Source: Leucoraja ocellata
Lineage: Eukaryota
Length of the DNA: 64,000 nt
Assembly: GCA_036785375.1 (NCBI GenBank)
Contig: JAWMAR010000040.1
Coordinates: 10,602,001 to 10,666,000 of the forward strand
Direction of reading: 5' to 3'
Made by a program: the position numbers. Shown here piece after piece: positions 12,001 to 15,000 of this stretch; position 1 is the first letter of the stretch, and each line of letters begins with the position of its first letter.

Positions 12001-15000
12001 AGGTGTTCTTCTTGTTTCTCCTAACTTGATAAAATGTATAATAGTTTTGCAAATTAACGTTAAATGCATCATTCCGATTGGATTGCTGCAAAGGCATTGC
12101 AAATAGTATAAATAATGTTGCAAAATGAGTGCCCTGTTAATTGTTGATTGGTTGAAATGTTGAGCCTTGGGGGAACTGTTTGAATCCCAGGGCACATGTT
12201 GCACTATTCATCTGTGTTGGCTTCCTTCTTGAAGCTTCTTTCAAATACAATGCATTCCAGATTGTATTATTGGGTTATGGAACTGTCAATTATGTACTGT
12301 TATTATCAATATGTTTGATTGGTTTTTAAAGAGACCGCCCCCATGTGGTTCGGCCCCTCAAAGTTCGGGGACCTATACAAGGTAGCTCCCACGAGGTCCG
12401 ATGTCAATCTTCTGGAAGGACGCTTGGGACTGCGCGACCTTTTGGAGCGTCTGTGCTTGCACGAGTCTGGAAGGGCTCGGCCAAGCAGATACAAGGATCG
12501 AACCAGTGGTGGTTAGGTATTGTATAGGGAACTGTAGTTGTGTTATCCAAAATAAAGTTTAGTTGCTCAAGTGCTTGATTCAGTATTTTATTGACTGAAA
12601 CTAGACTGGGGGGAGCATAGAACAAGCTATTTACAATTCCTTCTTGCGAATCAGGAATACAAACTGTTCCCAGATGCACACAATGTGGCCTCCTCGACAC
12701 TGGAGATGTTGAATGCAGGCTGGGTCACTTCTTCACAGGAAACGTCCATGTGGTGTGCCAAGCTGATGCTCAGTTTCAAATTCTTAGGGAGGTAGTTAGT
12801 AGAGTTTCCTCCGTTTCACAATGATGTGCATGGGAATACGTCAATATGGCCGCACATATATGGCAATATATTAATATGGTTCCCTAAGTGCAGCACTGGA
12901 GGCCATGCTGCTGCCTAGATCATGCTGATGGAGCCCAGTACACTGTGTTGGTAGGAGGGGTCTCCAGGGGCGGTGCTGTAGGCGGTGGCTCTCAGTTGGT
13001 ATTATTTGGGCAATTATTCTTCAGAGCACAGCACAATCAAGCATTGAAATGTGATGCATGTTATCTAAAATTGAGTTTTTAGTTTAGTTTAGTTTAGAGA
13101 TACAGCACGGAAACAGGCCCTTCGGCCACTGAGTCCGCGCCGACCAGCGATCCCCGGACACTAGCACTATTCTACACATACTAAAGATAATTTACAATTT
13201 TACCAAAGCCAATTAACTTCCAAACCCTTACGTCTTTGTAGTGTGGGAGGTAACTGGAGTGGGAAGATTTTTTTTTTTGTAACATGCAGAACATAAGATA
13301 TATAAGGTAGACACAAAATACTGGAGTAACTCAGCAGGTCAGGCAGCATCTCTGGAGAGAAGGAATTACGTTTCGGGTTGAGACCCTTCTTCAGATATAG
13401 GAGTAAGTGAGATTTTCGCTTCCTGAAGGTTTGCAAAGAGAGTACCTTTGGGAATTTATTCGCGATCTTTCCACTATCCGAAGAAAAACAGCGGCATTTT
13501 TCGAATGGGAAGACATAGGAGAAGGAATATTCAAAGTTGTGAAGTCCGATTCTCTGGCTGAGCTCTGGGGACAAAGGAAAAAGAATGAGCACATGACCTA
13601 TGAGAAACTAAGCAGAGCATTGAGGTACTTTAGCAATCTATGTATCAGGCTGAACTTCCAAACAGAAATGTGATTTGGTAAATTGGAATTATTTTTATTT
13701 CACAATTAGGCACTTTTAATTATGTACAATCTAGTTATAATAGGGAAGGATTTTGCAAGGCACTATTCAGTTTACATTACAAGAAACATATCCCAGAAAA
13801 AACGAAATGTTCTCCCTGTGTCCTCATGAGTTTTCTCCAGGTGCTGCAGTTTCCTAACACATTCCAAAGATGTACAGGATTGTAGGTTAATTGGCTTCGG
13901 TAAAATTCTAAAATGTCTCCAGTGTGTAGGATAGCACTAGTGTACGGGGGTCGCTGGTCGGTGCAGTATCGGTGGGCCGAAGGGCCTGTGCCACCCTTAC
14001 CATTAAATCGCTACACTACTGTGGCTGCAGTATGAGATGTCTACAACTTGCACTGCAGTTACTAGTCTGGATCACCCCAATCTGGGTCTCTTCCATCAAT
14101 GGACAAGGGCACTAGAGGGTTCAACAGCTGGTTTCCTTCCAAGATACAAACAAACCTGACATAGAAATACATTGTCGTTCCTTCATCACTGCTGGGAGAA
14201 ATATCTGAAATATCTAGGGTAGTATTGAAAACCAGAGGACATAGGTTTAAGATGATGGGAGGAAGATGTAATAGGAACCCGAGGAGTACCATTTTCACAC
14301 AAAGAAAGGTGGGTGTATGGAACGAGCTGCTGGAGGAGGTCAATGAGGCAGGTACTATTGGGACGTTTAAGAAACATTTAGACAGGTTAATGGATAGGAG
14401 AAGTTTAAGAGGACATGAGCCAAATGCAGGCAGGTGTCTAGTGTAGATGGAACATGTTGGCCAGTGTGGGTTACTTGGGCTAAAGGGCCTGTTTCCACAC
14501 TGTAAGACTCAATGACTCTATGAGTTAGTGATGGGCAGAGGCTAAAGGTTTGTTCTATTGGGAAGGTGCAAGTTCCAGAGCATAAATAAAAGTAAGTGCA
14601 AGAAAGGTTATGGAAATCCGGTTTATATGTGTTAAGAGATAGCATGCTGCAAATCCTTTGCAATTATAGAATCACTCATGGACCAATCCTAAATACTGGT
14701 AGTTTATTATTGCCAATAATACCTGATTGTCACGTTTTACAGAGGGAAATAATTGTTGACAGATCACTTCATTTTATTTAGCTTTTCAGGCATTATTACA
14801 AAACTGGAAATTTGGAACGGGTGCATAGAAGGTTAATGTACAAGTTTGGAAGGAATGCATATGTCTGGAGATAAATATCCTCGTTTACTCATCAATTACA
14901 ACCTGATTAAAAATATGGCCCTAATGGAAAATAAGAGACTACGCTAGAATGCACTCGTGCACTCTTCAGGAACTAGGCTATCAGTAATCATCATAACTAG

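What the first reader, a model, noticed from the sequence alone, without database searches (positions are those of the whole stretch)
13429..14874. ELF5-like ETS gene about 6 kb upstream of the RAG1 promoter, apparently lacking PNT exons
Seen: two exons with canonical splice sites encode a complete ETS domain ending at TAA 14874. I could not find a Pointed/SAM exon or start exon in the ~9.4 kb back to NDUFS3. There are unusual substitutions (GNLERVH for GILERVD, AYVW for AHGW), and a repeat sits 35 nt from the acceptor. Known: ELF5 and EHF are PNT+ETS epithelial factors that lie as a tandem pair megabases from RAG in human. Inference: a relocated ETS-only paralogue (possible competitor at GGAA sites, possibly within reach of RAG enhancers) or a decaying pseudogene.
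Basis: partly seen in the sequence, partly recalled or inferred. Interest (0 to 1): 0.65.

Follow-up and report, generated by a model that had tools for sequence, protein, structure and literature searches.

The report
Truncated ELF5 gene remnant beside RAG1
The last two exons of a skate's ELF5 transcription-factor gene lie between NDUFS3 and RAG1 without the rest of the gene and with one garbled stretch, so this is most likely a dying gene remnant, not a new regulator.

Summary
Two + strand exons (13429-13624 and 14790-14874, GT..AG intron, TAA at 14872-14874) encode a full-length ETS domain. It is closest to ELF5. The nearest protein is a 243-aa PNT+ETS protein of the sawfish Pristis pectinata, which falls in the ELF5 clade. 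RAG1 in the window is 98% identical to RAG1 of Amblyraja radiata, so the window comes from a skate.

No Pointed-domain coding sequence exists anywhere in the 64 kb, and a positive control shows it would have been found. NDUFS3 ends on the same strand 9.5 kb upstream.

Four private replacements hit near-invariant columns.

Evidence against decay: outside that stretch the domain has changed no more than in intact relatives, and the splice sites, open frame and stop are all kept.

Best reading (0.55): a truncated relic of the skate ELF5 orthologue. A working Pointed-less ETS gene remains possible (about 0.25). "Relocated paralogue" is not supported, because ELF5 and RAG1 share a chromosome in many tetrapods. 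The finding is ordinary to mildly interesting.

The parts
13429..13624 (+). ETS exon 1 of the ELF5 orthologue. It carries domain positions 1-65, corresponding to helix 1 through the recognition helix. Codons 14-24 read in a frame other than the family's.
   Evidence: Pfam Ets E=4e-17. ELF5 1wwx 5.5e-22. 50 of 54 residues outside the stretch are identical to Pristis P0001, and 0 of 11 inside it. The off-frame match is shown.
13625..14789 (+). Intron (GT..AG, 1165 nt) splitting the codon of the arginine that closes the ...SRALR motif. It contains dispersed-repeat pieces.
   Evidence: Sequence. Repeats at 13844-13989 and 14403-14519 have other copies in the window. Relatives read straight through this point.
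14790..14874 (+). ETS exon 2 (domain positions 66-92) ending in TAA, at the same position where relatives end.
   Evidence: ELF5 1wwx 1.4e-8 without a gap; ELF3 and EHF need one gap. Family profile 1.9e-12. 24 of 27 residues identical to Pristis.
13076..13396 (.). Two dispersed repeats (13076-13259 and 13304-13396) immediately upstream of the exon-1 acceptor.
   Evidence: 6 and 12 other copies in the window.
528..3941 (+). Upstream neighbour: the last four coding exons of NDUFS3 (528-677, 1518-1643, 2930-3050, 3776-3941). AATAAA lies near 4050.
   Evidence: Pfam Complex1_30kDa on three exons. Sequence.
25193..28291 (+). Downstream neighbour: RAG1 coding exon (1032 aa).
   Evidence: Pfam RAG1. 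98% identity to Amblyraja radiata RAG1.
42117..43727 (-). RAG2 coding exon, convergent with RAG1.
   Evidence: Pfam RAG2 and RAG2_PHD.

Best explanation
These are the two 3' exons of the skate orthologue of ELF5, left behind after the gene lost its 5' part. That part held the Pointed domain and probably the start. The most likely state is a unitary pseudogene at an early stage of decay that makes no working protein.

Shown:
- the ELF5-clade identity of the exons
- the intron at the expected place, so this is not a retrocopy
- the absence of Pointed coding sequence in 64 kb
- a same-strand gene (NDUFS3) ending 9.5 kb upstream
- an 11-codon stretch that matches the family only in another frame, bounded by two single-base frame changes of opposite sign that cancel
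- four private replacements at near-invariant columns

Inferred:
- the 5' exons were deleted or rearranged away, not merely missed
- no intact copy exists elsewhere in the genome
- the relic is not translated into a functional factor
For: 1. Six full-length relatives by tblastn hit only the two ETS exons. The next best hit has E=0.38.
2. A profile of 40 full-length ELF5 proteins against 3234 six-frame segments finds only these two exons. The next best has E=1.
3. Pfam finds no SAM_PNT in 93 + strand segments of 3933-13670.
4. Positive control: a profile without cartilaginous fishes detects 5 of 5 25-residue pieces of the Pristis Pointed domain at E 1.9e-10 to 5e-3.
5. In frame, the 11 codons match 0 of 11 residues in each of the four cartilaginous-fish relatives, Latimeria and a camel, and 1 of 11 in a caecilian.
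6. The off-frame 11-mer has a mean BLOSUM62 score of 17.2, against -7.2 in frame. Only 13 of 127,936 11-mers in the window reach that score.
7. The window departs from 11 of 56 columns that are at least 90% conserved, against 3-4 in each intact cartilaginous-fish protein. G at position 90 is invariant in 69 of 69 distinct domains.
8. Both exons score below all four intact relatives: 98.2 against 125-137 bits, and 38.2 against 44-51 bits.
9. There is no ATG ahead of exon 1, and in-frame stops lie just upstream.
10. Neither the search with the window's exon 1 against proteins of 115-2000 aa nor the search with Pristis P0001 against proteins of 133-426 aa lists an ELF5-clade protein from a skate. 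Amblyraja radiata proteins are nonetheless in the database.
Against: - Outside the 11 codons the domain is as well kept as in intact genes. Private residues number 6 in the window and 3, 4, 4 and 7 in the four relatives. Their spread over conserved and variable columns does not differ (Fisher p=0.64).
- The relative-rate count of 4 against 1 is not significant.
- Positions 55-71, the recognition-helix region, are identical to Pristis.
- Both splice acceptors, the donor GT, the 92-codon open frame and the stop position are all kept.
- The frame is restored after 11 codons, and the flanks are far less changed than the stretch (7/81 against 7/11 mismatches, p=9.5e-5). That pattern could also arise if the flanks stayed under selection.
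- Start and linker exons are too poorly conserved to detect, so their absence is not shown.
- The two frame changes could be assembly errors. No reads were available to check this.
Confidence: 0.55

Rival explanations
1. A working Pointed-less ELF5 gene. An undetected upstream start or linker exon splices to 13429 and yields an ETS-only protein. That protein would bind GGAA sites, like human ELF5 isoforms 3 and 4. The helix 1 to strand 1 loop would have been re-coded by a compensated frame change.
For: - Open frame, splice sites and stop are kept.
- The recognition-helix region is identical to Pristis.
- There is no excess of private changes outside the stretch.
- The flanks are much better kept than the stretch.
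- Pfam still scores exon 1 at 62.8 bits across the stretch.
- Linker and start exons would be invisible to my searches.
- Human ELF5 isoforms lacking the Pointed domain exist, and isoform 3 behaved like the full-length protein (PMC4704400, passages read).
- Predicted ETS-only ELF5 isoforms of about 160 aa are annotated in many birds, reptiles and mammals.
Against: - No start codon or upstream exon was found.
- No protein of 115-2000 aa containing this exon is in the database.
- Near-invariant L14 and L15 are lost, and I72N, D77H, G90V and R29I are private changes at near-invariant columns.
- Both exons have the lowest profile scores among relatives.
Confidence: 0.25
2. A partial duplicate. Only the 3' half of ELF5 was copied next to RAG1, and an intact ELF5 sits elsewhere in the skate genome.
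For: The fragment begins exactly at an exon with repeats abutting it. This fits a breakpoint in the preceding intron.
Against: - No skate ELF5-clade protein appears among the best 120 of 273 hits to the Pristis protein. An intact one should rank near the top.
- ELF5 and RAG1 are on the same chromosome in 15 tetrapods, so this is a natural place for the original gene.
- The rest of the genome could not be searched here.
Confidence: 0.1
3. An intact full-length ELF5. Its Pointed exons would lie beyond the left edge of the window, with NDUFS3 nested in an ELF5 intron. The frame changes would be assembly errors.
For: The window starts inside NDUFS3, so sequence further upstream is unseen. The frame changes are unverified by reads.
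Against: - NDUFS3 is on the same strand, with its own stop and AATAAA.
- None of its last three introns holds Pointed sequence.
- Even in its best frame the stretch has 7 of 11 mismatches to Pristis, so two base-calling errors alone do not explain it.
- No skate protein appears.
Confidence: 0.07

Closest known systems
ELF5 (ESE-2) of jawed vertebrates. The nearest is the 243-aa protein of Pristis pectinata (P0001), named 'ETS homologous factor' by its source.
   Same: - ETS domain of 92 residues with the same length and stop position.
- 74 of 81 residues identical outside the garbled stretch.
- ELF5-type spacing, without the extra residue found in ELF3 and EHF.
- Cartilaginous-fish proteins group with ELF5 in 200 of 200 bootstraps.
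   Different: - No Pointed domain and no detectable start or linker.
- 11 codons out of frame.
- Private changes R29I, I72N, D77H and G90V.
Human ELF5 isoforms 3 and 4 (Pointed-less splice forms) and ETS1 p27
   Same: They would be ETS-domain-only products. PMC4704400 (passages read) reports that isoform 3 acted like full-length ELF5, and that ETS1 p27 competes with full-length ETS1.
   Different: Those are splice forms of genes that still hold the Pointed exons. Here the Pointed exons are absent from the locus, and no transcript is known.
Lineage-specific loss of ETS genes, such as ETV2 in birds
   Same: A conserved ETS factor missing from one vertebrate lineage (PMC10992995; only the search listing and the start of the abstract were seen).
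   Different: Here a recognisable two-exon remnant is still in place.

Membership tests
ETS-domain family (Pfam PF00178) | Match to the Ets profile above the curated cut-off | tested here: met
   Exon 1 alone scores 62.8 bits against 26.9. Exon 2 alone (27 aa) gives no Pfam Ets hit, but it matches ELF5 1wwx at 1.4e-8 and the family profile at 1.9e-12.
ETS-domain family (Pfam PF00178) | Recognition helix and the following tyrosines kept | tested here: met
   Domain positions 55-71 are identical to Pristis P0001. That these residues contact DNA is recalled knowledge, not tested here.
ETS-domain family (Pfam PF00178) | One uninterrupted family reading frame through the domain | tested here: not met
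   Codons 14-24 match the family only in another frame.
ELF5 orthology group | ETS domain nearest to ELF5, not EHF or ELF3 | tested here: met
   Bit scores against solved structures: ELF5 80, ELF3 68, EHF 66 for exon 1; 36, 22 and 21.5 for exon 2. The nearest relatives cluster with ELF5 in 200 of 200 bootstraps.
ELF5 orthology group | N-terminal Pointed (SAM_PNT) domain | tested here: not met
   None in 64 kb. The control shows it was detectable.
ELF5 orthology group | Complete open reading frame with a start codon | tested here: inconclusive
   No ATG ahead of exon 1, and stops lie just upstream. An upstream start exon cannot be excluded, because N-terminal and linker pieces of relatives are undetectable even in the control.
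Unitary pseudogene | No intact copy elsewhere in the same genome | not testable with these tools
   No vertebrate genome collection is available. Indirect evidence: no skate ELF5-clade protein appears.
Unitary pseudogene | Relaxed constraint on the remaining coding sequence | tested here: inconclusive
   Private changes hit invariant columns and profile scores are lowest. Their number and placement do not differ from intact relatives (p=0.64).
Processed (retro-) pseudogene | No introns | tested here: not met
   A 1165-nt GT..AG intron lies where relatives read through.

The most novel reading that the evidence does not exclude
Skates keep a Pointed-less ELF5. It would be a stand-alone ETS-domain gene sitting 10 kb upstream of the RAG1 coding exon. 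Its helix 1 to strand 1 loop would have been re-coded by a compensated frame change while the DNA-reading surface stayed under selection. It could act as a GGAA-site factor or competitor without the Pointed transactivation module. The well-kept flanks are what keep this reading alive.
Probability: 0.25. Interest if true: 0.55.

Novelty: new member of a known kind. Interest (0 to 1): 0.3.

Why it matters
If it is a relic, it dates and localises the loss of ELF5 in skates. ELF5 is a conserved epithelial factor. The finding also suggests patchy loss across elasmobranchs: ELF5-clade proteins were found for only 4 cartilaginous-fish species (Pristis, Heptranchias, Pristiophorus, Callorhinchus). None was found for the 6 species whose RAG1 is in the same database. 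In addition, it shows that ELF5 and RAG1 are old neighbours.

It is a caution for annotators, because the exons look clean unless the frame is compared with relatives. If instead it is expressed, it would be a natural ETS-only ELF5 and an example of a compensated frame change inside a DNA-binding domain.

Tried and rejected
- Two weak profile matches upstream are chance. One is 10016-10153 (E=3.9), the other 12605-12709 (E=39). The first resembles only the tetrapod N-terminus, not the cartilaginous-fish one, and overlaps a repeat with another copy in the window.
- Read-through from NDUFS3 is rejected. All three NDUFS3 donor sites in the window are phase 0, while exon 1 needs phase 1 (read).
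- Rfam and tRNA scans of the whole window found nothing.
- The search of 1.84 billion representatives with exon 1 gave no near-identical protein. The best identity was 63%. Its hits are unnamed and were not used.
- My first column counts were wrong for positions 78 and beyond, because EHF and ELF3 have one extra residue there. One search replaces them.
- The AlphaFold model of Pristis P0001 models the Pointed domain well (pLDDT above 90). The end of the ETS domain is modelled poorly, so I did not use it to judge positions 72, 77 and 90.
- Paper searches found nothing in print on ELF5 in cartilaginous fishes: ELF5+elasmobranch 0, ELF5+skate 0, ELF5+EHF+'cartilaginous fish' 0, NDUFS3+RAG1+RAG2+synteny 0. 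ELF5+shark returned 55 papers. The eight listed are all on trophoblast or placenta, not on cartilaginous fishes.

Full report
**What is there.** The + strand of 13429-14874 holds two exons. Exon 1 runs 13429-13624, with acceptor AG at 13427-13428, intron phase 1 and donor GT at 13625-13626. Exon 2 runs 14790-14874, with acceptor AG at 14788-14789 and TAA at 14872-14874. I searched each exon on its own. The joined model was not built, searched or folded, so no fold of the encoded domain was attempted.

Exon 1 (65 codons) matches Pfam Ets at E=4e-17. Among solved structures it matches ELF5 1wwx best (5.5e-22), ahead of ELF3 and EHF. Exon 2 (27 codons) matches ELF5 1wwx at 1.4e-8 without a gap, whereas ELF3 and EHF need a one-residue gap. 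The exons have no other copy in the window.

**Whose gene it is.** The best protein hit for exon 1 is a 243-aa Pointed+ETS protein of the sawfish Pristis pectinata (P0001, 75% identity). Proteins of Pristiophorus, Heptranchias and Callorhinchus follow. Three of the four sources name them 'ETS homologous factor'. In a neighbour-joining tree of 31 named proteins (231 columns) they group with ELF5 in 200 of 200 bootstraps and with EHF in 0 of 200.

The window shares residues at domain positions 3, 4, 5 and 54 with Pristis alone among 69 distinct domains. It is therefore the batoid ELF5 orthologue, not a separate paralogue.

The window is not human. Its RAG1 (1032 aa) is 98% identical to RAG1 of Amblyraja radiata and 84-85% identical to that of a stingray and an electric ray. 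It therefore comes from a skate.

**What is missing.**
- tblastn of six full-length relatives hits only the two ETS exons. The next best hit has E=0.38.
- A profile of 40 full-length ELF5 proteins run over 3234 six-frame segments of both strands finds the two exons (9e-33 and 2e-12). The next best hit has E=1.
- Pfam finds no SAM_PNT in 93 + strand segments of at least 30 aa between 3933 and 13670.
- As a control, I cut residues 1-145 of the Pristis protein into eleven 25-residue pieces and scored them with a profile lacking all cartilaginous fishes. The five pieces within the Pointed domain (residues 49-121) scored E 1.9e-10 to 5e-3. Two pieces had E above 1. Four did not appear among the 30 best rows.

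The absence of Pointed sequence is therefore robust. The absence of start or linker exons cannot be shown.

NDUFS3 (Pfam Complex1_30kDa) runs on the same strand. It ends at 3941, with AATAAA near 4050. The 9.4 kb between it and exon 1 has no N. Only 1069 of 9358 bases there have another copy in the window. No ATG precedes exon 1 in its open stretch, and in-frame stops lie just upstream.

**The garbled stretch.** Codons 14-24 of exon 1 match 0 of 11 residues in each of the four cartilaginous-fish relatives, Latimeria and a camel, and 1 of 11 in a caecilian. An 11-codon reading in another frame over the same bases scores 10 to 24 against five of the six relatives tried.

The mean score over those five is 17.2, against -7.2 in frame. 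Only 13 of 127,936 11-mers of the window score as high. The stretch is thus bounded by two single-base frame changes of opposite sign that cancel.

In the model of the Pristis protein this stretch covers the end of helix 1, the loop and the first residue of strand 1. Even in its best frame it has 7 of 11 mismatches to Pristis, against 7 of 81 in the flanks (p=9.5e-5). Intact relatives show 1-5 of 11 and 7-19 of 81. It is a local hot spot of change, so two base-calling errors alone do not explain it. Without reads I cannot exclude an assembly contribution.

**Signs of decay and signs against it.**
- For decay: of 56 columns that are at least 90% conserved in 69 distinct ELF5, EHF and ELF3 domains, the window departs at 11. 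Five of these lie in the stretch, two are shared with relatives and four are private (R29I, I72N, D77H, G90V; G is invariant in 69 of 69). Intact cartilaginous-fish proteins depart at 3-4.
- For decay: both exons score lower against a bony-vertebrate ELF5 profile than the matching parts of all four intact relatives (98.2 against 125-137 bits; 38.2 against 44-51 bits).
- Against decay: outside the stretch the window has 6 private residues, and the four relatives have 3, 4, 4 and 7.
- Against decay: the split between conserved and variable columns (4:2 against 8:10 pooled) does not differ (p=0.64).
- Against decay: the relative-rate count of window against Pristis is 4 to 1, which is not significant.
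- Against decay: positions 55-71 are identical to Pristis.

Taken together, the coding sequence has been kept about as well as a live gene, apart from one stretch.

**Context.** The gene order is NDUFS3 (+), ETS exons (+), RAG1 (+, 25193-28291), RAG2 (-, 42117-43727). I compared by eye the contig lengths that the protein tables give for ELF5 and RAG1.
- 15 species have the same length for both genes. They are Phrynocephalus, Sceloporus, Gekko, Microcaecilia, Notamacropus, Cavia, Ornithorhynchus, Mantella, Pelodytes, Spea, Bombina, Rhinophrynus, Discoglossus, Lissotriton and Pelobates.
- Phrynocephalus carries locus tags JRQ81_000563 and JRQ81_000579 for the two genes.
- Six species differ. Four of them are on small scaffolds. 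The other two are Hymenochirus and Protopterus.

Linkage of ELF5 with RAG1 is therefore old, and 'relocated' is not needed. From memory, both genes lie on human 11p, about 2 Mb apart.

**Distribution.** With the Pristis protein as query, ELF5-clade proteins of cartilaginous fishes came from four species only, each in a cluster of 1-3 members (the best 120 of 273 hits are listed). RAG1 rows exist for Amblyraja, Hemitrygon, Narcine, Heterodontus, Scyliorhinus torazame and Rhincodon, and none of these six has an ELF5-clade row. This hints at repeated loss. It rests on annotation and on a word-indexed search, so it is weak evidence.

**Verdict.** Best reading (0.55): a truncated relic of the skate ELF5 orthologue, early in decay. 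The main rival (0.25) is a working Pointed-less ETS gene with an unseen start exon. Human ELF5 isoforms 3 and 4 lack the Pointed domain, and isoform 3 acted like the full-length form (PMC4704400, passages read). Lesser rivals are a partial duplicate with an intact gene elsewhere (0.1) and an intact gene with exons beyond the window plus assembly errors (0.07).

**Left unchecked.**
- The cluster look-up did not complete.
- No vertebrate genome, read set or RNA data was on hand.
- Supplements of skate and shark genome papers, which may list gene losses, could not be seen.
- Unnamed database hits were not fetched or used.
- One run of N lies far from the region studied and was left alone.

Noticed in passing
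window 16700-17650 and 18600-19500: A G+C-rich (0.50-0.54), strongly skewed low-complexity tract lies between the ETS exons and RAG1. It yields long proline/histidine/threonine-rich and glycine-rich open frames on both strands. It looks like simple-sequence DNA, not genes.
   Followed up: no
window 23424-24485 (+): A 353-aa open frame with a reverse-transcriptase domain (Pfam RVT_1, 3.2e-15) lies about 0.7 kb upstream of the RAG1 start codon. It is a retrotransposon fragment inside the RAG1 5' region.
   Followed up: partly
window 31397-34390 (-): Pieces of a LINE-like retrotransposon lie between RAG1 and RAG2. An endonuclease domain (Exo_endo_phos, 1.9e-8) and a reverse-transcriptase domain (4.4e-7) sit in separate open frames.
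   Followed up: partly
window 13304-13396 and 12 other places: A roughly 90-bp dispersed repeat has 12 further copies in 64 kb. One copy ends 32 nt before the ETS exon-1 acceptor. A related family at 13076-13259 has 6 copies.
   Followed up: partly
window 42117-43727 (-): The RAG2 open frame extends 17 codons upstream of the methionine that begins the MSLQMV... motif. Which ATG is used is not known.
   Followed up: no
protein tables: ELF5-clade proteins of cartilaginous fishes were found for Pristis, Heptranchias, Pristiophorus and Callorhinchus only. None was found for the six species whose RAG1 is in the same database. This may reflect patchy loss of ELF5 among elasmobranchs.
   Followed up: partly
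window 12330-12520: A short CpG-rich patch lies about 1 kb upstream of exon 1 in otherwise AT-rich sequence. There is no Rfam or tRNA match. Its significance is unknown.
   Followed up: no
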